DNA of 64,000 nt, from NCBI GenBank assembly GCA_040255465.1, contig JBDZVA010000002.1, positions 418,274 to 482,273 of the forward strand, in the 5' to 3' direction. Made by a program: the position numbers and the translations under genes. Shown one piece after another: positions 5,696 through 41,132 of this stretch. Source of the stretch: Planctomycetaceae bacterium. GTDB taxonomy: Bacteria; Planctomycetota; Phycisphaerae; Phycisphaerales; UBA5793. How positions within the stretch are numbered: the first letter of the stretch is position 1; each line of letters starts with the position of its first letter. The notes beneath the pieces were generated by a model that saw only the letters and a program-made list of their open reading frames with translations, made no database searches and had not been told where the DNA came from.

Positions 5696-6583
5696 ATGAT
5701 GAAGTCAAGCAAGATGTTTCTGGCTCTCGCCGGTGGTGCGTTGCTGGCCGCGGGCACCCTGGCCAACGGTCAGGTTACGTTTTATTCTGGCGCGACGCAG
5801 ATCGTGAACTCTGATGGGCAGTTGCCCTTCAGCGACATCACGACCAATGGCCAGACGCTCGTGAACTACATGGACGCCGGGCTGATCGTGAACGTCAACG
5901 ATTTCGCGTTCGTCACCACTTTCTGCGGATTCGCCAACCCCAATTGCTACTACCCCAATGGCGGAGTGAACGAGCGGATCGTCATCACCAAGCAGAGCGG
6001 CGCTGACTTCTCGATCCTTGAGACGCACGTTTCCCATGGCTTTGGTGGCTGCACGATCTACGTATGGGCAACGGCCTACCTCAATGGCAATCCTGTGGCC
6101 GATTTCGATATCGATGTGACCGGCGGCACGCTCATCGGATGCAGCGGCAACTTCGATGAGCTTCGAATCGGTTCCTACCAGGACGGCGCGACGCGCGACC
6201 AGCACAATCCCGCGCTTCTCAACGCCATCGCCCTGGATGACATGGAGCACGGCAACGACGGCAGCGGCGGCGGCTACACCTGCACGGTGACTGGCAACTG
6301 CCCCGGCAGTGTCAACGTGGCCTGGAGCGGCGCTCAGGCCAACAAGCAGCAGGCCATCGTGTTTGCGGGCAACACCGGCAGCTACGTCGTCCCCGGCGGC
6401 CCCTGCGCGGGAACCCAGCTCGGTCTGGGCACGCGGAACCTCCGCGTCGTCAACACCATCGGCACCGGCAGTGGCTCGGGTAACGTGAACGGCCAGGCCG
6501 GCAGCGGCGCGTGCGGCGGCTATCTGCAGCTCGTCACCGTGTCGAGCCCGTGCGAAACCAGCAACGTGGATCAGCTCCCGTAA
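5696..6583 (+). CDS. Secreted protein with conserved C-terminal Cys/Gly domain (family member 2)
   Basis: Signal peptide MMKSSKMFLAL..ANGQ; passenger QVTFYSGATQIVNSDG; linker GSGGGY; tail ends PCETSNVDQLP. Confidence 0.88.
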   Translation: MMKSSKMFLALAGGALLAAGTLANGQVTFYSGATQIVNSDGQLPFSDITTNGQTLVNYMDAGLIVNVNDFAFVTTFCGFANPNCYYPNGGVNERIVITKQSGADFSILETHVSHGFGGCTIYVWATAYLNGNPVADFDIDVTGGTLIGCSGNFDELRIGSYQDGATRDQHNPALLNAIALDDMEHGNDGSGGGYTCTVTGNCPGSVNVAWSGAQANKQQAIVFAGNTGSYVVPGGPCAGTQLGLGTRNLRVVNTIGTGSGSGNVNGQAGSGACGGYLQLVTVSSPCETSNVDQLP

Positions 6584-6618
6584 CCGCTACGCACGTTCAG
6601 CCGTTTCTCAGAATTCGC

Positions 6619-6654
6619 GCAGCCCCGTCCCGTCCGGACGGGGCTGCATTTTTT
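6619..6654 (+). terminator. Intrinsic terminator
   Basis: GCAGCCCCGTCC/GGACGGGGCTGC 12-bp stem followed by a T-run. Confidence 0.8.
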
Positions 6655-6864
6655 GCAGGCGCGCAGCGGCCCAGATCCTCAAAAGCACGGTGTCAATGGC
6701 AGAGCCCGGTACTTTCTTGTGGCCTCTCGGCAGATTCTCTGGTCTGCGCCGCCGCAGTACGGTATAACGATAGCAGCGGTCTTGATTGGCAATCGAAGCG
6801 GTGAAGGCGCCAGCTCGGTCGCCAATGGCTGGAAAATCCTGTCGTCAACCGAAGGAGAGAACGA

Positions 6865-7752
6865 ATGAAATCGACTCACCTATTTGCAACGCTCGCGGGT
6901 TGTTCACTTCTGGTCCTCGGAATCGCAGCGCAAGGTCAGGTCAGTTTTTACAATGGAGCAAGCCGGATCGGTATCTCCGACGGATTGCTGACGTTTTCCG
7001 ATATCACCGAGAATGGTCGATCGCTGCGGAATTACGTTGGCGAAGATCTGATCGTCGACGTCCAAGGTTCGTCGTACGTCTTCACGCCTTGTGGTTTCAA
7101 CAATGAAAACATCTACTACGCTTCAGGTGGTGGCGCCGGTCGCATTACGATCACACGAATCGACGGTCGTACCTTTGATACGCTCGAAATGCTGGTTTCC
7201 ACAGGCCGGAACGAGTGCACGGTCTACCTCTGGGTCGCGGCGTTTCTTGGCGGCAACCTCGTGGACGAATTCGACGCAGACTTGCCTGGCGGGATTCTTG
7301 TGGGACTCCAAGGGACCTTCGATAAAGTAGAGATTGGCGCATACGCGAACGCCGTCATCAGAGACGAGCACAATCGCGGGTACCTGAACTACCTCGCAAT
7401 CGACGACATGGAGTACGGTCGCGGTGGGGGCGGCGGGTATCAACTCTCCGTGACCGGCCAGTGCCCCGGAACGGTCACCGTTGGTTGGTCGGGCGCCAAT
7501 CCCAACTCTCAACAAGCCCTGGTCATCGGACAGAATCAGGGCCAAACCACGATTCCAAACAACCAGCCCTGCTCTGGGACCGTTCTGGGAATCCAGGGCC
7601 AGGTTCAACTTGTCAATCCGCCGGGTTTTTTCGGGACGGGGAACGGCAGCGGGTCCCTCAACGGAAATGCCGGCGCGGGGGCATGCGGGCGGTACCTCCA
7701 ACTGATCCAAGGCGGATCCTGCATTGTCAGCAACGTCGAGCAGATTCCGTAA
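6865..7752 (+). CDS. Secreted protein with conserved C-terminal Cys/Gly domain (family member 3)
   Basis: SD AAGGAG; signal peptide; passenger QVSFYNGASRI homologous to members 2 and 4; GRGGGGGY linker; tail ends SCIVSNVEQIP. Confidence 0.88.
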   Translation: MKSTHLFATLAGCSLLVLGIAAQGQVSFYNGASRIGISDGLLTFSDITENGRSLRNYVGEDLIVDVQGSSYVFTPCGFNNENIYYASGGGAGRITITRIDGRTFDTLEMLVSTGRNECTVYLWVAAFLGGNLVDEFDADLPGGILVGLQGTFDKVEIGAYANAVIRDEHNRGYLNYLAIDDMEYGRGGGGGYQLSVTGQCPGTVTVGWSGANPNSQQALVIGQNQGQTTIPNNQPCSGTVLGIQGQVQLVNPPGFFGTGNGSGSLNGNAGAGACGRYLQLIQGGSCIVSNVEQIP

Positions 7753-7796
7753 TCTGGACTCGTACGCGTGTCAAACTGGTCTCACATGAGATCTCT

Positions 7797-7830
7797 GCCT
7801 CGCCCCCACGTGGGGCGAGGCTTTTTTTTT
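7797..7830 (+). terminator. Intrinsic terminator
   Basis: GCCTCGCCCC/GGGGCGAGGC stem followed by T9. Confidence 0.85.
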
Positions 7831-7991
7831 CTGCGTCATCCGGACTCGCGGGAGGCGGACGGCGGTCAGCCTGAAAGCCAGTGGGACTTCCCGTCTGGAG
7901 GGCTTTGGCTTCTGGCGGCGCTGGTTGAGGTGTGTTCGTGACCCTTCGCCGTCGAAAAACGGCCGATCGCGCCGAGAATCGGCGATTTTGC

Positions 7992-8020
7992 TTGCACCGC
8001 AAGTCGCGATCCGGTATAAG
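7992..8020 (+). promoter_or_regulatory. Sigma70-type promoter of family member 4
   Basis: TTGCAC-N17-TATAAG, same form as the promoter at 5567. Confidence 0.6.
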
Positions 8021-8120
8021 TAGAGGATCATCCTGCCCGGGGCGATCGGCGAGTCGTTTGGGCTGCCGCACCGCAAGACCGGGCAAACCACCAACTGGAA
8101 CACTTCGAAGGAGCCGAAAG

Positions 8121-8993
8121 ATGAAACCAAGTCAGATGTACGGATTGGTCGCCGGTTGTGCTTTGCTCGCCGCAGGCGCCGCGACCAACGGTCAGGTCAC
8201 GTTCTACACCGGCGCAACCCAGATTGTGAATTCGGACGGGCAACTGCCGTTCAGCGACATCACTCAGAATGGCCAGTCGCTTGTGAATTACCAAAGCGCC
8301 GGTTTGACGGTCAATATCAACAACATCGCGTTCATCTTCACGCCCTGCGGATTCAATAACCCCAACATCTACTACCCCAACACCGGTACGCTTGATCGCA
8401 TCGAGATCACGCGCAACGACGGCCGCAACTTTGACATCCTCGAGATGCAGATCTCGCACGGCTTTGGTGGCTGCACGATGCCGGTGTGGGCTACGGCGTA
8501 CCTTGGCAACCAGGTCGTCGCGCACTTCGACGTGGATGTGTCGGGCGGCACGCTGCTCGGATGCCGCGGGACTTTTGACCGAATGCGCATCGGGTCATAT
8601 GCCGACGGCGCCACGCGCGACACGCACAATGAGTCCGCTCACAACGCAATCGCGCTGGACAACATGGAGTACGGGCGCGGCGGCGGCGGCGGATACACGC
8701 TGAATCTCTCCGGTCCCTGCCCCGGCTCCAAGCGACTTGCCTGGAGCGGCGCCACCCCCAGCGTTCAGCAGGGCATCGTGTTTGGCAATAACCTCGGCAA
8801 CACGACGATCCCCACCGGTCCGTGCTCGGGAACGGTCCTTGGCGTGTCGGGGAACGTCCACCTCGTCAACGTCATCGGGACGGGCAGCGGCAGCGGTTCC
8901 GTGAACGGCAATGCCGGCACCGGCGCCTGTGGACACTTCCTGCAACTCATCGAAGCCGGCTCGTGCAACACGAGCAACACGGCTCCGATCTGA
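8121..8993 (+). CDS. Secreted protein with conserved C-terminal Cys/Gly domain (family member 4)
   Basis: SD AAGGAG; signal peptide; passenger QVTFYTGATQIVNSDG; GRGGGGGY linker; tail ends SCNTSNTAPI. Confidence 0.88.
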   Translation: MKPSQMYGLVAGCALLAAGAATNGQVTFYTGATQIVNSDGQLPFSDITQNGQSLVNYQSAGLTVNINNIAFIFTPCGFNNPNIYYPNTGTLDRIEITRNDGRNFDILEMQISHGFGGCTMPVWATAYLGNQVVAHFDVDVSGGTLLGCRGTFDRMRIGSYADGATRDTHNESAHNAIALDNMEYGRGGGGGYTLNLSGPCPGSKRLAWSGATPSVQQGIVFGNNLGNTTIPTGPCSGTVLGVSGNVHLVNVIGTGSGSGSVNGNAGTGACGHFLQLIEAGSCNTSNTAPI

Positions 8994-9020
8994 TCGCTTA
9001 GCGGACTGAAGCGTCATCGC

Positions 9021-9056
9021 CGAAACGGGTGGGCCGGTCCCACCCGTTTCGTTTTT
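9021..9056 (+). terminator. Intrinsic terminator
   Basis: CGAAACGGGTGGG/CCCACCCGTTTCG 13-bp stem followed by TTTTT. Confidence 0.85.
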
Positions 9057-9309
9057 CTCAGACCATGCGGCTCAACGCGTTGTTATCGGTGTGAGCAAAA
9101 GGCTGAATCGTCGTCATTCAAGAGTTGATCGCTTGCACATCAGCGTGATTGCATTGTACATTTGATCGACTCGGCAGCGGATGAATCCATGCACGGGATC
9201 CGCGCCGCGTCACCGCCACGCACTGCGTCCAATCGCTGGTCACCAGACCACGACGACACCGGGCAGCGGTTGTTGCATCAGCAATTGATTTTCAATAGGA
9301 GAACAGCCC

Positions 9310-9951
9310 ATGCATCGCTCGATTCACGCCGCCATCGCCATTGGTGTTGCTGGTTTGCTCGGATCGCTCGCCAGCGCTGACGTCATCCGCGTTCAGGGAG
9401 ATCCCGATTTCAGCACCGAGAGGTTGGGGAACTTCTCGGGATCGATTCAGTACGACTATCAGTCCGGAAACGTGGGGCGTCTGGCCATCAGCCTCACCAA
9501 CACGACCGATCCCGTCATCGGGGGGTACATCACCGGATTCGTGTTCAACATCGGGACCCCGGAGCCCAGCGGGGCAGATACGGCCGCGCTGCTCTACTCC
9601 AGCTATCCGACACTCGTGAACATCCCGGGACCCGCGATCAACGGAGCGCCGTTCGGTCGCTTTGAGGCCGGCGCCGGCATCGGCGGGCAGTTTGAGGGTG
9701 GGGGCAATCCGACAACTGGCATCGGGATTGGCGCGACCGGGTTGTTTGAGTTCCAGGTGAACTCGGCGTTCGCGAGCGTCCTGAGCGCTTCGAGTTTCAT
9801 CGAAGGTCCCAACGACTTCAACTTTGTCGTGCGATTCCGTGGTCTGAGCAACGGCGGCTCGGACAAGGTTCCGATTCCGGTGCCCGGTTCAGTGGCGCTC
9901 ATGGGGATGGGCGCGATCGCGATCGGATCGCGTCGCCATCGCGGGCGCTGA
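9310..9951 (+). CDS. PEP-CTERM-like (exosortase target) surface protein
   Basis: Signal peptide; C-terminus IPVPGSVALMGMGAIAIGSRRHRGR (PxP motif + hydrophobic helix + Arg cluster); SD AGGAG. Confidence 0.8.
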   Translation: MHRSIHAAIAIGVAGLLGSLASADVIRVQGDPDFSTERLGNFSGSIQYDYQSGNVGRLAISLTNTTDPVIGGYITGFVFNIGTPEPSGADTAALLYSSYPTLVNIPGPAINGAPFGRFEAGAGIGGQFEGGGNPTTGIGIGATGLFEFQVNSAFASVLSASSFIEGPNDFNFVVRFRGLSNGGSDKVPIPVPGSVALMGMGAIAIGSRRHRGR

Positions 9952-10129
9952 TTCGCCGCCTGAGGTGTCTGTCTGCTTCATGCAGCGCGCTCCCGGCCCG
10001 GCCGGGGGCGCGTTGTTGTTTGGGGGTGGGGAACACCCGCTATTGCACCCGAACGGCACCCTGATTCATGGTCCATTCCCCGCTGCAGCCCTAGCATCGC
10101 CCACACGATTCGAGGGATCCGGCAGCACC

Positions 10130-11398
10130 ATGAGCACGACTGAACGCGAGATCGACTTCAAAGTACCCGCCGCGACCAGTTTCGAGGGCGAAACGCAGGG
10201 CCCGGGGCCCAACGGCTTCACGCCCAGCCACCAGGTGGCGGCGTCGGGCATCGAACTCGAAGACGTCCAGACGGAGGAAATGCTCGTCAACATGGGCCCC
10301 CAGCACCCGGCGACGCACGGCGTGCTGCGGGTGGTCCTGCGGACCGACGGCGAACTGGTCCTCGAGGCCGTGCCGCACCTGGGTTACCTCCATCGCTGTG
10401 CCGAGAAGATCGGCGAGAGTATTCCGTACTACAAGTACATCCCCTACACCGACCGCATGGATTACGTGGCGGGGATGAACGAAAACTGGGCGTTCTGCAT
10501 CGCGGTGGAGAAGCTGGCGGAGATCGAGGTGCCGCGCCGGGCGGAGTTCATCCGCGTGATCATCGGCGAACTCCAGCGCATCGCAAGCCACCTGGTGTCG
10601 TTCGGCACATACGGGCTGGACATGGGCGCGTTCACGCCGTTTCTGTATGCGTTCCGCGAGCGAGAGTACATCCTTGATCTGTTTGAGATGGTCTGCGGCG
10701 CGCGGCTGACGTATTCGTACTACACGATCGGCGGGCTGACGCAGGACGCGCCAGACGGCTGGCTTGACAAACTCACCGAGTTCCTCAACTACTTCGAGCC
10801 CAAGATCGAAGAGTACAACGCGCTGCTCAGCTACAACCGCATCTTTACGAACCGCACGGGCAACGTCGGCGTGCTGAGCAAGGAACTCGCGATCGCCTAC
10901 GCCTGCACCGGGCCCGTCATCCGCGGCAGCGGCATTCCCTATGACCTGCGGCGCGACAAGCCGTTCTCGGTCTATCCCGAACTCGATTTCAACGTGTGCG
11001 TCGGCAGCGGCGAGTATGGAACGGTCGGCGACTGCTGGGACCGCTACTGGGTGCGCATGCTGGAGATGAAGGAGTCGGTCAAGATCATCCGCCAGTGCCT
11101 GAAGATGATCCCTGATCCATCGGATGACAGCGCCACCGGCGGGCGGCACCGCGTCAAACTTCCCAAGAACTTCAAGCCCGACGCGGGCGAAGTCTACGTC
11201 GAGATGGACAACCCGCGCGGCGTGCTCGGCTTCTTCATCGAGAGCCAGGGGCAGACTCAGCCCTACCGCGTGAAAGCGCGCAGCGGCGCGTTCTGCAACC
11301 TGAGCGTGCTGCCGGAACTGTGCCACAATGTGCTGTTGGCGGACGTGCCGGCGATCATCGGCTCGATCGACATCGTGATGGGGCAGGTGGATCGGTAA
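10130..11398 (+). CDS. nuoD: NADH-quinone oxidoreductase subunit D
   Basis: NMGPQHPATHGVLR, GYLHRCAEK, DRMDY, ELQRIASHL, GSIDIVMGQVDR. Confidence 0.93.
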   Translation: MSTTEREIDFKVPAATSFEGETQGPGPNGFTPSHQVAASGIELEDVQTEEMLVNMGPQHPATHGVLRVVLRTDGELVLEAVPHLGYLHRCAEKIGESIPYYKYIPYTDRMDYVAGMNENWAFCIAVEKLAEIEVPRRAEFIRVIIGELQRIASHLVSFGTYGLDMGAFTPFLYAFREREYILDLFEMVCGARLTYSYYTIGGLTQDAPDGWLDKLTEFLNYFEPKIEEYNALLSYNRIFTNRTGNVGVLSKELAIAYACTGPVIRGSGIPYDLRRDKPFSVYPELDFNVCVGSGEYGTVGDCWDRYWVRMLEMKESVKIIRQCLKMIPDPSDDSATGGRHRVKLPKNFKPDAGEVYVEMDNPRGVLGFFIESQGQTQPYRVKARSGAFCNLSVLPELCHNVLLADVPAIIGSIDIVMGQVDR

Positions 11399-11406
11399 GC
11401 CTCGGC

Positions 11407-12255
11407 TTACGGTCCGCGCTGGAGAGCGCTCCACCCGGCGTCGCGACGGAACATCTTGCCCTTTGTCTCGAACACATCGAGATAGGTCATCTTGAGGGCA
11501 TGCCCGTCGCCGAACACCCATTGATTGGTCGCCGCCTCTTCCGGATACAACTCCCGGCCCGGCGGCGTGTCGCCGTGCGCCGTGTTCTGACACTGCGAGA
11601 AATAGCAGCCGTGGAACCCGATGCGGCGCACATCTGCTTCACGCCGGGTGTTGATGCCGACATTGTTCATGTCGCCGGCCATGGCAAACGTGTCGGGTCG
11701 TTTGACGTAGTCGGTGCGGCAGGGTGACATGTTCCGGCCTTCTGAGTTCTGGCCGTAGTTCAACCCCGGTTCGTGACTCAGCCCCATCGCGCCGGCGGGG
11801 GTGTCCCGGCCGTAATAGTTGAAGCCGAACGCGTAGACCGGCAGGCCGTAGTTCGCTTCTTTCCACTTCAGCTTTTCGAATCCGGGGATGACGTCGTTGA
11901 AGCCGGAGTAATTCGGATAGCGCTCGGGCGCGATGTCGCAATCCCACATGTACTCGTTGCCCGAGGTGAACTCCTTGAGCCCTCGGTACCACGAGTGGTC
12001 GAGAAGTTTGCTGCGGTCGTCGGTGAGATAGCCCGGCGCGAAGTATTCTTTGTAGAACGTCGAGTAGGCGTACTGCGCCTGGCCGATCTGACGGAGTTGC
12101 GAGAGGCACTTGGTTTCCTTGGCGGCGTACCGGGCGCGCTGAAGCGAGGGGAGCAGCAGGCCGATGAGCAGCGCGATGATGGAAATGACGACGAGCAGCT
12201 CGATCAACGTGAATGCGCGGCCGCTGAGTTGTGTCGTGGTGCGGCGGTGGAGCAT
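11407..12255 (-). CDS. Prepilin-type N-terminal cleavage/methylation protein (DUF1559-like)
   Basis: [35 protein letters not shown]; C-terminal [10 protein letters not shown]. Confidence 0.9.
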
Positions 12256-12480
12256 TTCGAGTCTCCCTGTGCAGGCGGCCGAGCGGCCGGTGGATGGCGG
12301 GCGGCCAACGGGACGCAGCCTCAAACCCGCCCAGCGATCCTGGATCGATCGCAGCATGTTGGACCACTAATCCTATCGAACGGGTCAAGGGTTTTCCCCT
12401 AGTAAATCGATGTTTGCTGTGGGGATATCGGCATCGATCGAGTCTGCTTGGTGGAATTGGGTGCAGGCCTAGACTGGCGT

Positions 12481-13341
12481 ATGGAATCTCCCGTCGAACC
12501 GCTGGCCGTGGATGACCTGACGTGGGCGGCGCTGCTGGGGCGCTGGCTGGACTTTGCGCGGGCGTCGGTTGCCTTGCCCGGCGATGCCGAGGGGCGGCGG
12601 TGGAACGCATCCGTTGCGCCGATCATCACGCTGCAGGCGGTGGCCTTTGCGCTGGGCCAGCTCAATGGACTGCCGGAGGATGAGCGGGCGCTGGGGCTGG
12701 ATCGGGCCGAGATTCTCCTGCGACAGGAATCGGGCCGACTGAACGCCACCTGGCGCGGAGAGCCGATGCCCGCGCTGCTGATTGAGCTCATGCAGGATGC
12801 TTCGCACGCGTTGCGCTCGGCTACGCTGGGGTGCTGCATCGAATTGCTCGTTGTCGATTCTCGCGAGTCGCTACGGCAGACGCCCGACTACCTCAGCGCC
12901 CTGCGTTCCATCGATCCGACACTGTTTGACGGTTCGATCCACCTTGTATGGCCGGGCACGCTGGCCGTTGAAGGTGAGTTGATCGGGTTCTTAGTCGGCC
13001 CCTCGCCGCGCGACTGGTGGCGTGAGCAGGTCAATGCGGCCGAGGCGGTTCAGCGGGCACTCCCCGAGTTGATTGAGTTGCTGAGCCCCGTGAGGGTGCG
13101 CTACGCGATGTCGCCGCGCCAGGTGTACCGGATCGTCGATGAGCAGGGGCGCATTGGGGAAGACGTGGCCGCGCCGCTCACTGATGATCCGCTGCCGGGC
13201 CAGCCACTGCTGCACTGCGTCTGGGATGCTGGTGCAGCGCTGCCGCCGACGATCGAGATCGATCGCTGGGTCAGGCAGCAACGGGCGGCATGGCCGACTC
13301 ATCGCCTCAGGTTTGTGGGAGCACCGGACGCATCCGCCTGA
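12481..13341 (+). CDS. Hypothetical protein
   Basis: Fills the gap between divergent and convergent genes; protein-like composition; 3' end overlaps mltA by 43 bp. Confidence 0.6.
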   Translation: MESPVEPLAVDDLTWAALLGRWLDFARASVALPGDAEGRRWNASVAPIITLQAVAFALGQLNGLPEDERALGLDRAEILLRQESGRLNATWRGEPMPALLIELMQDASHALRSATLGCCIELLVVDSRESLRQTPDYLSALRSIDPTLFDGSIHLVWPGTLAVEGELIGFLVGPSPRDWWREQVNAAEAVQRALPELIELLSPVRVRYAMSPRQVYRIVDEQGRIGEDVAAPLTDDPLPGQPLLHCVWDAGAALPPTIEIDRWVRQQRAAWPTHRLRFVGAPDASA

Positions 13342-14549: not shown

Positions 14550-14696
14550 GGGCAACTTCATTCCGTCAGCAGCGTTCAACATGCCGTTTCCTTTTTTGAG
14601 TCACGCCTTCGAGCACCGCTGGGGCGCATAACGTGGTATTGTTCATTCGAGATCGACCGTCCGCCTGTTTGTACAACAGTATTGTTGACCGCCGAA

Positions 14697-16034: not shown

Positions 16035-16051
16035 ACGCCGACGGGAGGCAC

Positions 16052-17014: not shown

Positions 17015-19261
<2,247 letters not shown>

Positions 19262-28706: not shown

Positions 28707-28716
28707 TGCCACGTGA

Positions 28717-29763: not shown

Positions 29764-29918
29764 GACCACACCCCCAGAACGCTCTCTCCGTTGCCCACGA
29801 CCGACGCGCAATCACTCATTCTGCCCTTGACGCATTGTAACAAATCGGGAGAAGACGGGCGGGCAAAACCGAACCAATGCCGAAACTTCTCCACTACAAT
29901 CTGCCTCGACGGGGCTCC

Positions 29919-30290: not shown

Positions 30291-30318
30291 TCGTTGTGCT
30301 CGTGGCGGACCGGCCGGG

Positions 30319-31926: not shown

Positions 31927-31929
31927 GGT

Positions 31930-33242: not shown

Positions 33243-33389
33243 GCGGTGCCTCTATGAGAAGAAGTCAACGTTCTTGATACCGCAGCCGACACCGGTCGTT
33301 GCGGCCTCAGGAGGATACCCGATGACCCCGCCTCAATGCAACCCCCATCTCCGGGGATAGAGTCACTTCCCTGAGAAATCCCATCCCCT

Positions 33390-33923
33390 TTGCCGCCGAT
33401 GCTTCCCCACTTTGACCACCCCCCTGGCGCTCCGACGAGGCGACTCGTGATCGGTTTGTCGGCGTCACGGCGGTTTCGTGGCCTTCAACAGCGCTGGCTT
33501 GCCTCGAGAACTCGTCGGGCCTGCGTGACCCTTGGTGTGCGCAGCGGAGACCTCTCGATTCGCCTGGCTGATGACCATGAAATGAGTCGGTTGCACAAGC
33601 GGCACAAGGGGAGATCCGGTCCCACGGACGTCCTCACCTTCGACTTCACCGATCCGGGTGATTCGCAACGGGGCCATCTCGAGGTGGAAATCATCATCGG
33701 GGCGGAAGTGGCGCAGCGCGAAGCGGTGAAGCGCGGCCACGCGCCTCGGATCGAGGCACTGCTTTACATCATTCACGGCCTGCTCCATTGCCTGGGGCAC
33801 GATGACCATGACCCGAGCCAGGCGGCTGCGATGCACCGCAGGGAAGATCAGGTACTCAAGGCGGTCGGGGTCGGCGCGGCGTATCGCACCGGAGGTCAAC
33901 GCCGGTCCCGCCGACGACTATGA
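33390..33923 (+). CDS. ybeY: rRNA maturation endoribonuclease YbeY
   Basis: PTDVLTF, IHGLLHCLGHDDH; upstream of a CorC/HlyC gene; start uncertain. Confidence 0.88.
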   Translation: MPPMLPHFDHPPGAPTRRLVIGLSASRRFRGLQQRWLASRTRRACVTLGVRSGDLSIRLADDHEMSRLHKRHKGRSGPTDVLTFDFTDPGDSQRGHLEVEIIIGAEVAQREAVKRGHAPRIEALLYIIHGLLHCLGHDDHDPSQAAAMHRREDQVLKAVGVGAAYRTGGQRRSRRRL

Positions 33924-34024
33924 TGCACTGTCGGCATGGCCCGTCGCAGAGGGCGATCGGGAACAAGCCGGAGGCTCCGCTCTGGTCGATCACGCGACCG
34001 GGCAGGAGTTGGATCGCTTGAGCC

Positions 34025-35335
34025 GTGAACGAGGTCCGCACTTCGGTGTCAGATCCCTGGATATGGTTGGCGCTCGTCTCGGCCCTGGGAGGCGGGTACT
34101 TGTCGGCTCTGCAACTTTGCCTCGAGGACTTCACGCGCGGGGAACTCGAAAGCCACCTCGGAAGCGGCAGGAGCGCCGCCCGGCTGGCGTGGCTGATGGA
34201 GCATCTTGACGACCTGATTCTCGCCGTCGCCATCTGGCGTCGGGCGTCCGCGGTCGTTCTCCTTGCAAGCGTGCTGGCGGCTTTTGCGCTGGATAGCACG
34301 CATCCAACGTGGGCGATCGTCGGTTGGTCCTTTGGCGTGTTCATCTGGATCTGGATTGCACACATCGGTCTGGCATGGGCCATTTCCGATCACATCGCGG
34401 CACCCGTCGTAGCCGGATCACTGCGCATTCTGCCGCTGCTGCACGTGTCCATGATTCCCCTCATCGCGCCGCTCAACTGGCTCAACGAGGTCGTCCGCCG
34501 CCTCGTCGGGGCGGAGCTGCGCGACGACCTTGAAGATGAACTGCGCCAGGTCATGGAAGAAGGAGAGCGCGAGGGGCACATCACCGGCACCGAGAAGGAG
34601 ATGATCGAGGCGATTGTCGACTTTCGCACCTGCACTGTCGGAGAGATCATGACTCCGCGCATCGATGTGGACGGGCTCGAACTCACCGACGACCTGCAGG
34701 CGGTCAAGCAAAAGGTGATCGAAGACGGACACTCGCGCTTTCCGGTGTACATCGACAGCCTCGATCACATCGTGGGGATCCTGTACGCCAAGGATCTGCT
34801 GCCGTTCGTCGGCGAGGACTCTTCGGACTTTCGCCTCAAGCCGCTGCTGCGACAGGCGATCCTTGTCCCCGAGTCGCGCCGCATCAGCGATCTGCTCGTT
34901 GAGTTCCGCAATGAGCAGGTTCACATGGCCATCGTCCTCGACGAGTACGGTGGGACGGCGGGTCTGGTCACGATCGAAGACATTGTTGAGGAGATCGTGG
35001 GAGAAATCCGAGATGAGCACGATATTGACGATCTCCCTGAACCTGAAGTCACGCGCAACGACGACGGAACTTCGGACGTTGACGGGCGCGTACGGGTCAG
35101 CGACCTGAACGACGAACTGTCGCTCAATCTCCCCGAAGATGAAGACTACGACACGGTGGCGGGGTGGGTGTTTGCCAGCCTTGGGCGCATTCCGGCTGCA
35201 GAAGAGGTTTTTCGCATCGGCTTGATCGAAGTAAAGGTTTTGGACGTCGAGCGCACCCGGCTGCGACGCATCCGAGTTCGGCTCCTCAGCGATGAAGAAT
35301 CGCCGGTCGCCGCCGATTCGAGTGGGCCCAAGTAG
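34025..35335 (+). CDS. HlyC/CorC family transporter-associated protein (CNNM-CBS-CorC)
   Basis: TM N-terminus; IMTPR, GHSRFPVY, HMAIVLDEYGGTAGLVTIEDIVEEIVGEIRDEHD. Confidence 0.9.
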   Translation: MNEVRTSVSDPWIWLALVSALGGGYLSALQLCLEDFTRGELESHLGSGRSAARLAWLMEHLDDLILAVAIWRRASAVVLLASVLAAFALDSTHPTWAIVGWSFGVFIWIWIAHIGLAWAISDHIAAPVVAGSLRILPLLHVSMIPLIAPLNWLNEVVRRLVGAELRDDLEDELRQVMEEGEREGHITGTEKEMIEAIVDFRTCTVGEIMTPRIDVDGLELTDDLQAVKQKVIEDGHSRFPVYIDSLDHIVGILYAKDLLPFVGEDSSDFRLKPLLRQAILVPESRRISDLLVEFRNEQVHMAIVLDEYGGTAGLVTIEDIVEEIVGEIRDEHDIDDLPEPEVTRNDDGTSDVDGRVRVSDLNDELSLNLPEDEDYDTVAGWVFASLGRIPAAEEVFRIGLIEVKVLDVERTRLRRIRVRLLSDEESPVAADSSGPK

Positions 35336-35494
35336 CGGGATTCGCCTCCATTTGTTGCCGAATCACAGGTTCGACCTCCCAGCCGAGTCGGAGATCGGTT
35401 ATGATCTGCATTGGCTCTTGAGAGTTCGCCGGGACATGGGCCGTTGTCCGGCCAATGGGCGAGCTGCGAATCACTTTCCCAAGGAGGGAATCAC

Positions 35495-36370
35495 ATGAAC
35501 CGATTCAGTTTGTTGGCTGCGGGTGCACTGATGGGCTTTGGCGGTTCGATGGCGTTGGCTCAGCCGATCAACATCGGCGATTTTTCCGGAAGTGAGCAGG
35601 TCATTACCTTCACTCCCGGGTTCGGGGGCCAGAGCGCACCATTCACATACGAAGGGGTGACCTTCTCCGAGAATGGGGGAGGAACGGGCGGGCCGGGATT
35701 CAACGCGAGTATCAACTGGGGTTCGTACTTTGCCAACATTCCAGGCTCCTCGCAAAGCAATGGGTTCAACGACCAGTGGGGTGACAGCCTCATCATCATG
35801 CAACTCCCCAGCGGGATTCGTCGCTTTGGGTGTCTGCTGTCGACGACGCCGATTACAACCTGGACGATGAACCTTTACGACTCGGGTAACAATCTCATTG
35901 GCAGTGACACTCGGACGATGCCGGGCACCAGCCAGGCCGTGTTCATCGGCTACCAGACCAGCGTTGACATCGCGCGCGTCGAGATCGACGAGACCAATGG
36001 CGAGAATGGCAACATTTCGCTGATGGATGATGTGCGACTCGAAGGTGTTGGCGGCGGCGGCTACACCTGTAACATCACGGGCGCCTGCCCCGGCAACATC
36101 AACGTCAACTGGGCCGGCGCTCAGCCCAACAAGACCCAGGGCATCGTCTTCGCCAGTAACACCGGCAGCTTCACGATCAGCAGCGGATCGTGCGCGGGAA
36201 CGCAGCTCGGCCTCGGCACCCGTAACCTCCAGCTGGTCCGCACCATCGGCACCGGCAGCGGTTCGGGCAGCATTGGCCGCGCCGTCGGCTCAGGCGCCTG
36301 TGGCGGTTTCGTTCAGCTCGTCACCGTGGGCAGCCCCTGCGAGACGAGCTCCGTTGGTCAGATTCCGTAA
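35495..36370 (+). CDS. Secreted protein with conserved C-terminal Cys/Gly domain (family member 5)
   Basis: SD AAGGAGG; signal MNRFSLLAAG..ALAQ; GGGGY linker; tail ends PCETSSVGQIP. Confidence 0.88.
   Translation: MNRFSLLAAGALMGFGGSMALAQPINIGDFSGSEQVITFTPGFGGQSAPFTYEGVTFSENGGGTGGPGFNASINWGSYFANIPGSSQSNGFNDQWGDSLIIMQLPSGIRRFGCLLSTTPITTWTMNLYDSGNNLIGSDTRTMPGTSQAVFIGYQTSVDIARVEIDETNGENGNISLMDDVRLEGVGGGGYTCNITGACPGNINVNWAGAQPNKTQGIVFASNTGSFTISSGSCAGTQLGLGTRNLQLVRTIGTGSGSGSIGRAVGSGACGGFVQLVTVGSPCETSSVGQIP
36050..36370 (+). repeat. Copy A of a ~320-bp inverted repeat (tail-coding region)
   Basis: Near-identical to the reverse complement of 38084-38404; encoded tails differ at 9 of 106 aa by my count. 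Confidence 0.9.
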
Positions 36371-36436
36371 CCGCTTCCATGATGGAGCAGCAACGCGGGG
36401 CCGGCGCCTCGCGTTCGACAGATCGTGATCAATGAC

Positions 36437-36468
36437 CGGGGCCCACGAAGATGACTTCGTGGGCCCCG
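36437..36468. terminator. Perfect hairpin between convergent genes (probable bidirectional terminator)
   Basis: CGGGGCCCACGAAG-ATGA-CTTCGTGGGCCCCG; no T-tract. Confidence 0.55.
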
Positions 36469-36497
36469 TGACATGACACGCTCCGCTTGGAGGTGGA

Positions 36498-38003
<1,506 letters not shown>

Positions 38004-38005
38004 TC

Positions 38006-38040
38006 AAAAAAAACCTCACCCCCATTTGGGGGTGAGGTTT
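38006..38040 (-). terminator. Intrinsic terminator of family member 6
   Basis: AAACCTCACCCCC/GGGGGTGAGGTTT stem with an A-run on + (T-run on -). Confidence 0.85.
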
Positions 38041-38083
38041 GTGGTCTCATATGAGATCTGAATTCGAATTCAGGCGAACCGAA

Positions 38084-38404
38084 TTACGGAATCTGACCAA
38101 CGGTGCTCGTCTCGCAGGGGCTGCCGACGGTGACGAGCTGGACGAAGCCGCCGCAGGCGCCGGAGTTGACCGAGCGACCGATGCTGCCCGAACCGCTGCC
38201 GGTGCCGATGGTGCGGACCAGCTGGAGGTTACGGGTGCCGAGGCCGAGTTGCGTACCCGCGCAGGCGCCACTGTTGATGGTGAAGCTGCCGGTGTTGCTG
38301 GCGAAGACGATGCCCTGCTGCTTGTTGGGCTGAGCACCGGCCCAGTTGACGTCGATGTTGCCGGGGCAGGTACCCGTGATGTCACAGGTGTAGCCGCCGC
38401 CGCC
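38084..38404 (-). repeat. Copy B of the ~320-bp inverted repeat
   Basis: Reverse complement matches 36050-36370. Confidence 0.9.
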
Positions 38405-39073
38405 GCTGCCGAGGCCAGTCACGGCGATGTCGTCGTAGTAGGTCGCGGTGCCAAGCGTGAAGAGGTCGATGTTGGCGATCTCGGGGACGCCCGCGTCAAC
38501 AAAGAGGATGCCGGTGGAGACTTCGACGTTGTTGTAGTAGGTGGTGATGGTGTCGTTGTCGATATCGACTTCGCAACGAATCTCGACCCACTGGTCAAAC
38601 GCGATGGGGGGGAAGTTGGTTTCGGTGCGGAGATCGTCCGCAACGGTTCCCGGACCGCCGCCCGCGTCACCCTCGAAGTCGAACTGCAGCTCGATGCACC
38701 AGTCGTACGGGCCGCCGTGGTTGTAGACGTTCTGGAAGATGAAGTAGGTATCGGAGATGAATGATCCGACGGGGATGTACACCCAGGCGGAGATCGTGCC
38801 CGAACCGCTCGTCAACCCGGTGAATGGGTGGATCGCGTCGTCGGCGCCTTCGGCGAGAATCGACCGGCTGCCCGTGTGGGCGAAAGCCGGCGACGCGCTG
38901 CCGCAGACCGCTTCGAGATCATCCCAGCCGGTCCAGCCGCCGACGTGGAAGAGAACCTGACCGTTGGAATAGCCTTCGAAACCATCACTCCAGTCCTGGC
39001 CGAGTGCGGTGTTGCAAAGTCCAGTCACTCCGAACGCCAGAGCCAGTCCAAGTCCTGTCAGTTTGCCTTTCAT
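38084..39073 (-). CDS. Secreted protein with conserved C-terminal Cys/Gly domain (family member 6)
   Basis: SD AAGGAG; signal MKGKLTGLGL..ALGQ; passenger QDWSDGFEGY..GGWTGWD (ConA/LamG-like by pattern); GSGGGGY linker; tail ends PCETSTVGQIP. Confidence 0.88.
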   Translation of the reverse strand: MKGKLTGLGLALAFGVTGLCNTALGQDWSDGFEGYSNGQVLFHVGGWTGWDDLEAVCGSASPAFAHTGSRSILAEGADDAIHPFTGLTSGSGTISAWVYIPVGSFISDTYFIFQNVYNHGGPYDWCIELQFDFEGDAGGGPGTVADDLRTETNFPPIAFDQWVEIRCEVDIDNDTITTYYNNVEVSTGILFVDAGVPEIANIDLFTLGTATYYDDIAVTGLGSGGGGYTCDITGTCPGNIDVNWAGAQPNKQQGIVFASNTGSFTINSGACAGTQLGLGTRNLQLVRTIGTGSGSGSIGRSVNSGACGGFVQLVTVGSPCETSTVGQIP

Positions 39074-40133
39074 AGATTCCGCTCCTTCTGAAAATGGTAA
39101 AAAACTCCCATCGGAGGTCGACGTCCGCCTCCGAACACCATGGCGCATCCTTGCGACGCATTTCAGCGCCCAACGGCCATGCACCGCGGCTCGCTCCGGG
39201 TACTCCCGGAGCGAGTTGTGGATCGTTTTAGAATCGGTCCCGAAACCTGTGCGGGAATGACTCTCCGTCCTACTTATCAAGATAACCGATTCTGAGCGGA
39301 AAGCGAAGCGCAATTCCGAAAAAGAACAGAAGTTACGGGTAGTTTTCCCCTGGCAAGGTTCGGCAGGGCCCCGCCAGCGGCCTGCGGAGGACGCGCGATG
39401 CGCCCGTCATCGCGGAACTGGGGGTCCGAAAACGCCGCCCCAGTCCGAGAACCCTGTCGGTTTGGATGATTTGCCTGTCTGCTGCAAATGCTGTTCTGGA
39501 AAAAGTCGGTATCACTGTCGCCTTGTTATGGTGTTTTTGCAGAAAAAACTGATTCTGATCCAGAGTTCCGTTGCATTTGGCTCAATCTCCTGTACACTGT
39601 GGATGGTAAATGATCGGTTGCTTGGCGCATCATGCGTTTGCGGTACGGAGAGATTCTCTCGCAGGGCAGCACCGATCAATCCACGATGTCTTTGCCGCGT
39701 TTGGTTGCGGATTGCATTGATCGGGAGAATGGCTGAGAGGGGAAAACGGGTGGTGAGACGGTCCTGCGGCTTCGGTCGCATGCGTTTCGCGATCCGAACG
39801 AGTCATGGCGGCAGATGCGGTTTCCACATCTGCCTGGTCTTGAGCCGGGAGTGACTCGCTCTGAGGCCACTGCGAAGGCTGGGCTCGTCTGGAGGGTTGA
39901 GTCTTGAGAGAGGGAGATCGGGGGGAGCAGATGAACAGCGCGTGTATTTCAGCCACCCGCGTGACCCAGCCGTTCGGTGAGCGGTCACACAGCGAATGTC
40001 ATCGGTTTCATGTTCCTTCGAGGCGCTTTGGCGCACGGCGAAGCGGATTCTAGTAGTTTTCCAGTTCTTGCTCGGAGCGGCGCGTTGTCGCTCATGAGTA
40101 TCACGTGTTCTTTCCTAACGGAGAAAAGAAGAA

Positions 40134-41132
40134 ATGACAAAGTCAACGACGAAGTTTTTCCTTGGTGCAGCAGCGGCAACTCTCGCCGTGACCGGTGCGG
40201 TCAACGCTCAGATCGCCTCAGTTGCTCCGTCCGCCAACGGAAACAACGGCATCATCGCTCAGGATGAGTACATGTGGGACGACGCCACCACCGAGAACCT
40301 CCTCGGCTGGACCGCCGGCGGCACCATGGCGTGGATTCAGTGGTTCGACGCCGCGGGCGGCAGCGACACCATCAGCGAAATCCGCATCATCAACGGTTCC
40401 GCGCTGTATCCGGGTTACGGTAACGGCAACGGTTCCCCCGTTTCGGTCGGCATCTGGTCCGATCCCAACGGCGACGGCGAGCCCAGCGATTCGGTCCTTC
40501 TGGCCCGCGTCGACACCACCGTGCAGAACATCGACACCGACACCTACCAGACCGTCGCGATCACTCCGACGGCCGTCACGGGTCGCTTCTTCATCGGGGC
40601 GTGGATTGAGCACGGCCCCGGCCAGTTCGTGGCTCCCATGGACCAGAGCTCGGGCAACATCATCGCCGGTCGCGCCTATGTCTTCGGCAACTACGTCGGC
40701 TACGGCGGATCGTTCAATCCGGACAACCCCGGCGATACGCTCAACAACATCATCTATGAAATGACCAGCATCGGTTTCCCGACGAACTTCTGCGTTCGCG
40801 CCAGCAGCGGCGGCGGCGGCGGCTACAGCCTCACCGTCGGCGGCAACTGCCCCGGTACGGTCAACGTCCGTTGGGCCGGCGCTCAGCCCAACAAGCAGCA
40901 GGCGATCGTCTTCGCGGCTAACACGGGCAGCTACGTTGTCCCCAGCGGCCCCTGCCAGGGCACGCAGCTCGGTCTCGGTACCCGTAACCTCCGCGTCGTC
41001 AACACCGTCGGCACGGGCAACGGCGCCGGTCAGGTCAACGGCAACGCCAGCAGCGGCGCTTGCGGCGGCTACCTCCAGCTCGTCACCATCGCCAGCCCCT
41101 GCGAGACCAGCAACGTGGACCAGCTCCCGTAA
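40134..41132 (+). CDS. Secreted protein with conserved C-terminal Cys/Gly domain (family member 7)
   Basis: Signal peptide; passenger YMWDDATTEN..WSDPNGDGEPSD; SSGGGGGY linker; tail ends PCETSNVDQLP. Confidence 0.88.
   Translation: MTKSTTKFFLGAAAATLAVTGAVNAQIASVAPSANGNNGIIAQDEYMWDDATTENLLGWTAGGTMAWIQWFDAAGGSDTISEIRIINGSALYPGYGNGNGSPVSVGIWSDPNGDGEPSDSVLLARVDTTVQNIDTDTYQTVAITPTAVTGRFFIGAWIEHGPGQFVAPMDQSSGNIIAGRAYVFGNYVGYGGSFNPDNPGDTLNNIIYEMTSIGFPTNFCVRASSGGGGGYSLTVGGNCPGTVNVRWAGAQPNKQQAIVFAANTGSYVVPSGPCQGTQLGLGTRNLRVVNTVGTGNGAGQVNGNASSGACGGYLQLVTIASPCETSNVDQLP

What the first reader, a model, noticed from the sequence alone, without database searches (positions are those of the whole stretch)
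5696..41132. Passenger and tail relationships are incongruent: domain shuffling at a GGC-repeat linker
Seen: members 2 and 4 have closely similar passengers (QVTFY[S/T]GATQIVNSDGQLPFSDIT) but clearly different tails. The tail of member 2 instead matches member 7, 34 kb away (about 18 differences in 105 aa by my count, both ending SPCETSNVDQLP), although member 7 has an unrelated passenger. Members 5 and 6 have unrelated passengers and near-identical tails. Similarity switches at the poly-Gly linker, encoded by GGC runs at about 6262, 8678, 36050, 38393 and 40808. Inference: recombination or gene conversion at the linker mixes heads and tails as cassettes.
Basis: partly seen in the sequence, partly recalled or inferred. 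Interest (0 to 1): 0.75.

Follow-up and report, generated by a model that had tools for sequence, protein, structure and literature searches.

The report
Swappable tail domain on secreted proteins
Eight genes in this stretch of an uncultured planctomycete genome encode secreted proteins ending in the same uncatalogued 100-residue domain, and this tail has been copied between otherwise unrelated genes, so heads and tails have different histories.

Summary
Tail identities are M2/M7 82% (18 of 102 residues differ), M5/M6 91% and M2/M4 54%; the M2/M4 heads are 67% identical, and the M2, M5, M6 and M7 heads are unrelated to one another. Five GGC-run linkers lie where stated.

The window has eight members, not seven. 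The genome, a Phycisphaerales MAG, has 114. Each is a signal peptide, a variable head and a ~102-aa four-Cys beta-sandwich at the extreme C-terminus. The tail has no Pfam or NCBIfam match. These are not autotransporters.

Tail exchange between paralogues is well supported:
- Orthologous, syntenic heads in sister genomes carry tails from different clades (M5, M1, M2; AU p 5e-5 to 0.002).
- Other paralogue pairs have 220-330 nt of identical tail DNA beside heads about 50% identical.
- Contigs from four independent studies bridge the M5 junction.

The linker hotspot is not shown. The two whole-tail swaps in the window do map to the linker. But that is the 5' edge of homology, recent tracts start at scattered positions, M1 breaks inside its tail, and only 28 of 110 members have a poly-Gly linker.

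The tail's function is unknown; a sorting or anchoring tag is inferred.

This scan had already noted the module and its conversion on other DNA.

The parts
4456..5343 (+). M1: signal peptide, head and tail (tail about 5035-5340). No poly-Gly linker (AGPPGLSL).
   Evidence: The head is 86-87% identical to the G005 and G003 orthologues but the tail only 51-57%. The break lies about 25 codons inside the tail. AU p=0.0016.
5696..6583 (+). M2: head of the M2/M3/M4 family, GGC linker at 6266-6274, and an M7-type tail at 6275-6580.
   Evidence: The head is 72% identical to the single 'M24' gene of G005 and G003. The tail is 55-60% identical to M24 tails but 80-82% to M7 tails. Quartet site patterns favour M7 by 49 against 6 and 5.
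6865..7752 (+). M3: the most diverged paralogue of the M2/M3/M4 head family, with a clade-A tail.
8121..8993 (+). M4: head paralogue of M2 that keeps the ancestral (M24-type) tail. GGC linker at 8679-8690.
   Evidence: (tail 71-74% identical to G005 and G003 M24 tails).
35495..36370 (+). M5: head from an 8-member head family, joined at the GGC linker (36050-36061) to a copy of the M6-type tail (36062-36367).
36498..38003 (-). Glutamate dehydrogenase-like gene lying between the M5 and M6 tails, which form a ~320-bp inverted repeat of 91% identity.
   Evidence: A contig from run X4 carries the ends of both tails in opposite orientation.
38084..39073 (-). M6: head with a weak CBM_4_9 likeness, GGC linker at 38393-38404 and tail at 38087-38392. 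It is the inferred donor lineage of the M5 tail.
   Evidence: G0_M5 nests inside the tails of M6-head genes, support 100/100.
40134..41132 (+). M7: unrelated head, GGC linker at 40809-40823 and tail at 40824-41129. It is the inferred donor lineage of the M2 tail.
41462..41851 (+).
   Evidence: It is conserved in G002, G005 and G003, with tails 93% and 79-81% identical.

Best explanation
Each gene encodes a Sec-exported protein built from a variable head, often a short Gly linker, and a ~102-residue four-cysteine beta-sandwich at the very C-terminus. This tail is an uncatalogued module carried by 114 proteins in this Phycisphaerales genome.

Because all tails are homologous DNA while most heads are not, homologous recombination (non-reciprocal gene conversion) between paralogues copies tail sequence from one gene into another. 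Tracts can span anything from part of a tail to the whole tail. They are bounded on the 5' side at or after the start of homology (the linker or first strand) and on the 3' side at the stop codon.

In the window, M5 received an M6-type tail, M2 received an M7-type tail, and M1 had most of its tail replaced.

Shown: the incongruence, the identical DNA tracts and the junction positions. Inferred: the mechanism (conversion rather than another form of recombination), the direction of transfer, and the tail's role as a shared sorting, anchoring or docking tag.
For: - Family size and position. A tail HMM hits 114 six-frame ORFs at domain E<1e-5, in 113 of them 0-6 residues from the ORF's end. The genome search found 113.
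- No Pfam or NCBIfam match at E<=0.1 for 8 of 8 window members.
- AlphaFold2 with a 45-row alignment gives pLDDT 97.2 and nine strands. C44 and C93 are invariant, and C9 and C80 are at least 90% conserved.
- Orthologue test, M5. The G003 M5 is syntenic (next to the same CBS-domain gene), its head is 84% identical, and its tail falls in the other major tail clade. The G0_M5 tail nests within the tails of M6-head genes with 100/100 support. AU p=1e-4.
- Orthologue test, M1, M2/3/4/M24 and M6: AU p=0.0016, 5e-5 and 0.001.
- Timing. M5/M6 third-codon-position identity is 82.4%, against 72.5% for the M6 orthologues of G000 and G002. They share a 68-nt exact tract.
- Tracts at DNA level:
  - C9_982746/983922: 332 nt with 1 mismatch, heads 59% identical.
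  - C5_676008/C7_17953/C14_129963: 248-274 nt with 0-3 mismatches, heads 49-65%.
  - C12_126284/135614: 221 nt exact in the tail and 603 nt in the head.
  - All end at the stop codon.
- Genome-wide coupling. Head-family labels need 31 changes on the tail tree; 12 would be full congruence, and shuffled labels give 45.9 +/- 1.8 with a minimum of 40 in 300 shuffles. One of 13 head families has monophyletic tails.
- For 85 of 114 proteins the nearest tail belongs to a protein with an unrelated head. In 13 of those 85 the partner lies within 10 kb (null mean 0.91, maximum 6 in 2000 draws).
- Not an assembly chimera. Contigs from four runs of four studies bridge the M5 head-tail junction at 36050 with 3-7 differences. 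The M2, M6, M7 and M8 pairings recur in G002 and G005.
Against: - For M2/M7 across G000 and G002, the orthology pattern dominates (22 sites, against 4 within-genome and 3 other). That swap therefore predates the species split, and ongoing homogenisation is not shown for this pair.
- G0_M5 shares more quartet sites with G2_M6 (9) than with G0_M6 (3). This does not fit a simple recent M6-to-M5 copy and needs later changes in G0_M6 or exchange between strains.
- All genomes compared are metagenome-assembled. Assemblers can collapse near-identical repeats, so '100% identical' may be slightly overstated.
- The tail trees rest on 102 columns, and 13 of 37 inner branches are unresolved.
- The AU groups were defined by head orthology, but the tests were run after I had seen the tree.
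- The maximum chi-square position at the linker is partly forced, because the tail donors' heads are not alignable.
- No partner or machinery for the tail was found, so its function is inference only.
Confidence: 0.8

Rival explanations
1. The (GGC)n linker is itself a recombination hotspot, through microhomology or slippage, and heads and tails are joined there as cassettes.
For: - The whole-tail swaps of M5 and M2 map to within about 20 nt of the linker.
- The C12_219831/C12_635320 tract (unrelated heads) starts 6 nt before the first tail codon, inside the GGC run.
- Swap candidates have a run of three or more Gly in 10 of 20 cases, against 18 of 90 for the rest (Fisher p=0.0095).
- GGC makes up 90 of 124 Gly codons in linkers, against 3863 of 6954 elsewhere in these ORFs.
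Against: - The linker is where homology begins, so any homology-limited exchange that replaces a whole tail ends there.
- Nine of the 11 recent tail tracts start more than 15 nt from it, and five tracts lie in heads.
- M1 (no linker) was replaced from about codon 25 of the tail.
- The pairs with fully identical tails have at most two consecutive Gly before the tail.
- 82 of 110 members have no run of three or more Gly.
- In M5 the extra Gly codons came in with the M6 tail: G003 M5 has AVGGY and G000 M5 has GVGGGGY.
- The Fisher test ignores relatedness.
Confidence: 0.2
2. There is no recent exchange. Heads and tails were fused independently long ago, and tails look more or less alike only because of different selective constraint.
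For: - The tail is a compact, conserved fold with invariant Cys and Gly.
- Some head-homologous pairs have tails less alike than their heads, for example C5_1223355/C5_584636 with head 87% and tail 50%.
Against: - Identity extends to synonymous positions, with exact tracts of 220-330 nt and sharp edges.
- Syntenic orthologues within one genus carry tails from different deep clades.
Confidence: 0.04
3. The pairings are artefacts of metagenome assembly or binning, with chimeric joins across a repeated tail.
For: - All genomes compared are MAGs (record titles).
- Contigs in public runs break inside the tail repeat at about 36127-36235.
Against: - Contigs from four runs of four studies bridge 36050 with at least 94 nt on the tail side. 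One 13.6-kb contig covers 35000-36144 with 4 differences.
- The M2/M7 and M5/M6 tails are only 82-91% identical in DNA, which is too different to be confused.
- The same M2, M6, M7 and M8 pairings occur in G002 and G005.
Confidence: 0.03
4. Tails are replaced mainly by recombination with DNA from other strains or species (allelic or horizontal replacement), rather than by conversion within the genome.
For: - G0_M5 shares 9 quartet sites with G2_M6 and only 3 with its own neighbour G0_M6.
- M5 is present in G000 and G003 but absent at the syntenic site in G002 (150-nt spacer) and in G005 (a different ORF).
Against: - Nearest-tail partners with unrelated heads lie within 10 kb far more often than chance (13 of 85 against 0.91).
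- Exact tracts link genes of the same genome.
- M5/M6 third-position identity exceeds that between the M6 orthologues.
Confidence: 0.1

Closest known systems
T9SS C-terminal domain (CTD; Por_Secre_tail TIGR04183 / type B TIGR04131) of Bacteroidota
   Same: A beta-sandwich of about 70-100 residues at the extreme C-terminus of many unrelated Sec-exported proteins of one genome. The CTD is described as a conserved C-terminal beta-sandwich export signal in the abstract of PMC4804311, seen in the listing. The cargo here is similar in kind: S8 peptidases, propellers and Ig-like modules.
   Different: - No sequence match.
- No CTD structure appears among the listed fold matches, which are generic FnIII/Ig domains (best Z 9.3; Foldseek E>=0.0066).
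- Four conserved Cys.
- The organism is a planctomycete.
- SprA was not found, but the control genomes were silent too.
- Cleavage and lipid attachment are untested.
PEP-CTERM / exosortase sorting signal (TIGR02595, PF07589)
   Same: A C-terminal tag on many secreted proteins of environmental bacteria. The same genome has two exosortase genes, and a PEP-CTERM protein lies next to the M1-M4 array at 9310-9951.
   Different: PEP-CTERM is a signal of about 25 residues: a motif, a transmembrane helix and a basic tail. This tail is a folded 102-residue domain with no transmembrane segment.
Segment-limited gene conversion between bacterial surface-protein paralogues (for example the Helicobacter pylori bab genes) and concerted evolution in prokaryotes
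   Same: Paralogues keep different functional parts while a shared segment is copied between loci. The abstract of PMC6053082 (listing) defines concerted evolution as paralogues in one species being more alike than orthologues. The abstract of PMC4552749 (same listing) describes variable presence and location of Bab paralogues. That conversion drives this in bab is my recollection, not read here.
   Different: Here the shared segment is a separate domain carried by 114 genes with at least 63 unrelated head types. Exchange therefore re-pairs unrelated heads and tails rather than varying one antigen. No link to phase or antigenic variation is known.
Type Va autotransporters (passenger plus beta-barrel translocator)
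   Same: A signal peptide, a variable N-terminal part and a conserved C-terminal part.
   Different: The tail is a nine-strand sandwich of 102 residues, not a 12-strand barrel of about 250-300 residues (barrel size is from general knowledge). There are no autotransporter Pfam hits.

Membership tests
T9SS C-terminal domain (Por_Secre_tail) | Sequence match to TIGR04183 / PF18962 or TIGR04131 | tested here: not met
   No Pfam or NCBIfam family at E<=0.1 on the tail of any of the 8 window members. TIGR04183 gave no match in the whole genome, but it rang in none of the 14 control genomes either.
T9SS C-terminal domain (Por_Secre_tail) | C-terminal beta-sandwich on many unrelated Sec-dependent cargo proteins | tested here: met
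   114 ORFs carry the tail, in 113 of them 0-6 residues from the end. The model has nine strands and pLDDT 97.2. Heads are diverse.
T9SS C-terminal domain (Por_Secre_tail) | T9SS machinery (SprA and others) in the genome | tested here: inconclusive
   TIGR04189 (SprA): no match in G000 (95% complete), but no control genome rang. Other components were not searched.
T9SS C-terminal domain (Por_Secre_tail) | Structural match to solved CTDs | tested here: inconclusive
   The listed matches are generic FnIII/Ig-like domains (Foldseek best E 0.0066; VIA Z up to 9.3, rmsd 2.4 over 77 residues). No CTD entry is listed, which does not exclude one.
PEP-CTERM / exosortase substrates | Short C-terminal PEP motif, transmembrane helix and basic tail matching TIGR02595 / PF07589 | tested here: not met
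   None of the 8 members matches. The neighbouring ORF at 9310-9951 does match (PF07589 E 0.0017; TIGR02595 16.6 bits against a cut-off of 16). Exosortase genes are present.
Type Va autotransporter | C-terminal 12-strand beta-barrel translocator domain | tested here: not met
   The tail is a 102-aa sandwich. There is no autotransporter family among the Pfam hits.
Gene conversion / concerted evolution limited to a module | A segment far more alike than its flanks, including at synonymous sites, with sharp edges | tested here: met
   M5/M6 are 91% identical over 321 nt from the linker to the stop codon, and the flanks are unalignable. There are 11 near-identical tail tracts of 60-332 nt.
Gene conversion / concerted evolution limited to a module | Orthologous genes in sister genomes carry non-orthologous copies of the segment | tested here: met
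   M5 (G000 against G003), M1 (G000/G002 against G005/G003), M2 against M24, and M6 (G005). AU p ranges from 5e-5 to 0.0016.
Gene conversion / concerted evolution limited to a module | Paralogues within a genome closer than orthologues between genomes | tested here: inconclusive
   Met for M5/M6 at third positions (82.4% against 72.5%). Not met for M2/M7 (22 orthology sites against 4 within-genome sites). Only a short 3' patch (SPCETS against NPCEAS) covaries within genomes.
   Two of the 3 swaps in the window lie at the linker, and M1's lies inside the tail. Two of the 11 recent tail tracts start near the linker (-6 nt and -36 nt); the other nine start 37-249 nt into the tail. The linker coincides with the edge of homology.

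The most novel reading that the evidence does not exclude
The tail is the recognition or anchoring tag of an undescribed export or surface-attachment pathway confined to one family of Phycisphaerales. It is found in 10 of 10 genomes of that family, with 17-142 matches per genome (81-142 within the genus), and in 0 of 20 genomes from other families of the order.

Conversion within the genome keeps more than 100 tags compatible with a common partner and lets whole tags, with their Gly linker, move onto unrelated cargo. This would be a domain-level analogue of cassette systems.
Probability: 0.3. Interest if true: 0.8.

Novelty: new variant of a known kind. Interest (0 to 1): 0.5.

Why it matters
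About one gene in forty of this genome ends in a domain that no protein-family library names, and the domain behaves as a unit of recombination. This has three consequences.

- It marks the tail as functionally autonomous and probably read by a shared partner. That gives a handle on how these planctomycetes, which have no known counterpart of the T9SS, place proteins at or beyond their surface.
- It gives a natural data set, with hundreds of copies per genus, for measuring gene-conversion tract lengths and homology requirements in an uncultured lineage.
- It warns annotators that orthology of these genes must be judged on heads and tails separately.

Tried and rejected
- Pfam and NCBIfam scans of all 8 members named nothing for the tail. 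The only hits were a weak CBM_4_9 on the M6 head (E 0.028, below cut-off) and PEP-CTERM on the neighbour.
- The first AlphaFold model, from 8 sequences, was mediocre (pLDDT 70.7) and was replaced by the 45-row model.
- Foldseek against the PDB gave no match at E<=0.001. VIA wide search gave only generic Ig/FnIII sandwiches.
- The ESM Atlas gave no usable hit.
- Cluster look-up of 10 family representatives found 9 unnamed and one 'hypothetical protein'.
- A search for relatives of the M7 head, to see whether they carry other C-terminal tags, found only 11 close relatives of similar length and no Pfam domains, so it was uninformative.
- The search for related loci with the tail alignment failed because no stretch was conserved enough. 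A single protein was used instead.
- A full-text search for a described Phycisphaerae/Planctomycetes C-terminal sorting domain listed nothing relevant among the 15 papers shown of 69 found. I read titles and abstract starts only.
- A BLAST-based tract finder merged tracts with homologous heads and picked up overlapping flanks. It was replaced by an ungapped diagonal scan.
- SprA and Por_Secre_tail searches of the genome were blank, but the controls were blank too.
- Parts of the M5 region without cover in run X8 are not interpreted.
- No GARD, RDP or GENECONV program was available. Maximum chi-square and quartet site counts were used in their place.

Full report
**What is there.** The window is G000:C9:418274-482273. 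The closest named relatives found are MAGs titled Phycisphaerales bacterium and Planctomycetota bacterium.

ORF listing and translation show eight genes of one family, not seven:
- M1 4456-5343+
- M2 5696-6583+
- M3 6865-7752+
- M4 8121-8993+
- M5 35495-36370+
- M6 38084-39073-
- M7 40134-41132+
- M8 41462-41851+, a tail-only gene

Each begins with a signal-peptide-like N-terminus and ends in a ~102-residue segment with four conserved Cys (CPG ... PC.GT ... GACG ... C.TSN) that runs to the last residue. In M2 to M7 a run of 3-5 Gly, mostly GGC codons, precedes the tail. M1 has AGPPGLSL there and M8 has none.

- Tail identities: M2/M7 82% (18 of 102 differ), M5/M6 91% (9 differ), M2/M4 54%.
- Head identities: M2/M4 67%, M2/M3 50%, M3/M4 53%. 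All other pairs are at the 20-25% background, with no significant local alignment.
- GGCGGCGGC occurs 14 times, against 3.69 expected and 0 of 100 shuffles reaching 14.
- M5/M6 DNA similarity (91% over 321 nt) starts at the first GGC and stops at TAA. The flanks are unalignable.

**The family is much larger than the window suggests.**
- An HMM of the eight tails finds 114 six-frame ORFs in the 4.55-Mb genome at domain E<1e-5. In 113 of them the match ends 0-6 residues from the ORF's end. The genome search counted 113.
- Heads fall into 13 multi-member families (64 proteins) plus 50 singletons.
- Of the 20 longest members scanned, heads include S8 subtilases (2), Kelch propellers (4), DUF7948+SBBP (2), FG-GAP (2), GSDH+CHRD, a beta-helix, other propeller repeats (DUF5122, LVIVD, Reg_prop) and 5 with no Pfam match. 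No Pfam model covers the tail.
- Pfam and NCBIfam give nothing for the tail in any of the 8 window members.
- The tail occurs in 10 of 10 other genomes of the same family (81-142 matches in the six of the genus, 17-54 in four other genera) and in 0 of 20 genomes from other families of the order.
- A profile search of 1.84 billion representatives finds 1558 at E<=0.001. Of the ten looked up, nine are unnamed and one is called 'hypothetical protein'.
- With a 45-row alignment, AlphaFold2 gives a nine-strand beta-sandwich at pLDDT 97.2.
- Fold searches return only generic FnIII/Ig-like domains (Foldseek best E 0.0066; VIA best Z 9.3).
- These proteins are therefore not autotransporters, and 'passenger' is the wrong word.

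**Are heads and tails really incongruent?** I fetched the syntenic regions of sister genomes G002, G005 and G003. A housekeeping neighbour is 96%, 88% and 92% identical to them at protein level. Four cases stand out.

1. **M5.**
   - It is absent at the syntenic site in G002, which has a 150-nt spacer, and in G005, which has a different ORF with CxxCH motifs.
   - G003 has it next to the same CBS-domain gene. Its head is 84% identical, but its tail is of the other major tail clade, ending SCNTSNVSQLP.
   - In the tail tree (40 rows, 102 columns) the two major clades are separated at 99/99. G0_M5 nests with 100/100 support among the tails of genes that have M6-type heads.

2. **M2.**
   - G005 and G003 have a single gene ('M24') where G000 and G002 have M2, M3 and M4.
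   - M2 has the head closest to M24 (72%), but its tail is 55-60% identical to M24 tails and 80-82% to M7 tails.
   - M4 keeps an M24-like tail (71-74%).
   - Quartet sites group M2 with M7 49 times, against 6 and 5 for the alternatives, all along the tail.

3. **M1.** Heads are 86-87% identical between G000 and G005 or G003, but tails only 51-57%, and they fall in different major clades.

4. **G005 M6.** Its tail is nearer to M7-type tails (77%) than to G000 M6 (69%).

AU tests reject tail monophyly for each of these head-orthologous groups: M5 p=0.0001, M1 p=0.0016, M2/M3/M4/M24 p=0.00005, M6 p=0.001. The groups were defined by head orthology, but I ran the tests after seeing the tree.

Genome-wide figures:
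- Head-family labels need 31 changes on a 114-row tail tree. Twelve would be perfect congruence, and shuffled labels give 45.9 +/- 1.8 with a minimum of 40 in 300 shuffles.
- Only 1 of 13 head families has monophyletic tails. The tree is a quick one on 106 columns, so some of this is noise.
- For 85 of 114 proteins the nearest tail belongs to a protein with an unrelated head.

**Mechanism.** Several paralogue pairs with homologous but diverged heads have tails identical at DNA level:
- C9_982746/983922: 332 nt with 1 mismatch, heads 59% identical.
- C5_676008, C7_17953 and C14_129963: 248-274 nt with 0-3 mismatches, heads 49-65%.
- C12_126284/135614: 221 nt exact in the tail, plus a 603-nt tract with 3 mismatches in the head.

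Identity falls to about 30-50% right after the stop codon. Selection on protein sequence cannot produce this. It is the signature of recent non-reciprocal copying.

Other points that bear on mechanism:
- M5/M6 share a 68-nt exact tract. Their third-codon-position identity (82.4%) exceeds that of the M6 orthologues of G000 and G002 (72.5%).
- Nearest-tail partners with unrelated heads lie within 10 kb in 13 of 85 cases, against 0.91 expected and a maximum of 6 in 2000 draws. Six of these 13 are tandem tail-only genes.
- The M5 and M6 tails form a 320-bp inverted repeat around a glutamate-dehydrogenase-like gene.

**Results against simple ongoing homogenisation.**
- For M2/M7 across G000 and G002, orthology sites (22) far outnumber within-genome sites (4). 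That swap predates the split. Only the last few codons (SPCETS in G000, NPCEAS in G002) covary within genomes across M2, M6 and M7.
- G0_M5 shares 9 quartet sites with G2_M6 and 3 with G0_M6. This needs later change in G0_M6 or exchange between strains.

**Is it an assembly artefact?** All the genomes are MAGs. I laid the contigs of four public runs from four different studies on 35000-36700.
- Each run has a contig that bridges the M5 head-tail junction at 36050. One is a 13.6-kb contig covering 35000-36144 with 4 differences.
- Separate contigs carry the M6 head end joined to the M6 tail.
- Contigs break inside the shared tract, as expected for a repeat.
- The M2, M6, M7 and M8 pairings recur in G002 and G005.

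**Is the GGC linker the breakpoint?** Evidence for:
- Maximum chi-square places the M5 break between -21 and -1 nt of the first tail codon. For M2, three parent triplets place it between -20 and +10 nt. Each had 0 of 1000 permutations reaching the observed value.
- One recent tract between genes with unrelated heads (C12_219831/C12_635320) starts 6 nt before the first tail codon.
- Swap candidates have a run of three or more Gly more often than the rest: 10 of 20 against 18 of 90, Fisher p=0.0095, uncorrected for kinship.
- GGC is 73% of linker Gly codons, against 56% elsewhere in these ORFs.

Evidence against:
- The donors' heads are not homologous to the recipients', so the linker is the furthest upstream a homology-dependent exchange can reach.
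- M1, which has no linker, switches about 25 codons into the tail.
- The other recent tail tracts start at -36, +37, +45, +54, +63, +87, +144, +243, +249 and +249 nt, and five tracts lie wholly in heads.
- The pairs with fully identical tails have at most two consecutive Gly before the tail.
- Only 28 of 110 members have a run of three or more Gly.
- In M5 the longer Gly run came in with the M6 tail: G003 has AVGGY and G000 has GVGGGGY.

I conclude that the linker is the edge of the cassette and may serve as a short 5' homology anchor. It is not shown to be a hotspot.

**Function (inference).** The features that point to a shared tag read by a common partner are these:
- A folded, probably disulfide-stapled sandwich at the extreme C-terminus of more than 100 unrelated Sec-exported proteins.
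- Conserved tail-only genes, such as M8 (93% identical in G002).
- Restriction to one bacterial family.

The closest analogy is the T9SS C-terminal domain, which the abstract of PMC4804311 (listing) describes as a C-terminal beta-sandwich export signal. Membership is not supported: there is no sequence match, and a search for SprA was blank with blank controls. The genome also has two exosortase genes, and a PEP-CTERM protein lies beside the M1-M4 array, so the tail stands alongside that system rather than being part of it.

**Earlier notes of this scan.** Notes e1-3576043 and e1-2393605 describe the same uncatalogued module. Note e1-2102896 describes the 314-bp identical tails that I found independently; the longest common substring is 314 nt. 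Note e1-2371617 describes a swappable tail in another genome. What this window adds is the orthologue evidence for dated, directional whole-tail replacements, and an explicit test of the linker idea.

**Verdict.** This is a real feature. The hotspot claim is unproven and probably reflects the edge of homology. It is a new variant of a known process (module-limited gene conversion and domain shuffling), acting on an unnamed domain of unknown function.

Noticed in passing
window 9310-9951 (+): A 213-aa PEP-CTERM protein lies immediately downstream of the M1-M4 array. It matches PF07589 (E 0.0017) and TIGR02595 (16.6 bits against a cut-off of 16), with a weak 'cistern family' likeness. Two kinds of C-terminal tag therefore sit side by side, and the genome has two exosortase genes.
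   Followed up: partly
window 36050-36370 (+) and 38084-38404 (-): The M5 and M6 tails form a ~320-bp inverted repeat of 91% identity flanking a glutamate-dehydrogenase-like gene (36498-38003). Recombination between them could invert that gene. No inverted form was looked for beyond the contigs.
   Followed up: partly
L001 7974-8857 (G002 counterpart of M3): In G002 the M3 orthologue is split into two overlapping frames (L001_7974_8765 and L001_8435_8857). The tail match is divided between them at HMM positions 28 and 22, which suggests a frameshift or an assembly error inside the tail.
   Followed up: no
G000 C5:889450-891347 and C12:179762-181987: There are tandem arrays of tail-only genes (signal peptide plus tail, 133-223-aa open frames), four in a row on C5. 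Their tails are only 49-56% identical to each other.
   Followed up: no
G000 C12:126284-128836 and C12:135614-138160: Two paralogues with DUF7948/SBBP-type heads share a 603-nt tract with 3 mismatches inside otherwise ~50% identical heads, as well as a 221-nt exact tail tract. Conversion is therefore not confined to tails.
   Followed up: partly
L015 (a Gemmatimonadota MAG contig): A tail-like segment 41% identical to residues 232-331 of M7 occurs in a contig titled as an uncultured Gemmatimonadota bacterium. This hints that the module exists outside Planctomycetota, or that the contig is misbinned.
   Followed up: no
L004 6185-6875 (G005, the site where G000 has M5): G005 has a different ORF of about 230 aa at the M5 position, with CxxCH-like motifs (KPCHTPH, CMGCHDG) and no tail.
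   Followed up: no
window 41961-45716 (-): A 1251-aa ORF whose C-terminus carries a CMRCH haem-binding-like motif. I only read the translation.
   Followed up: no
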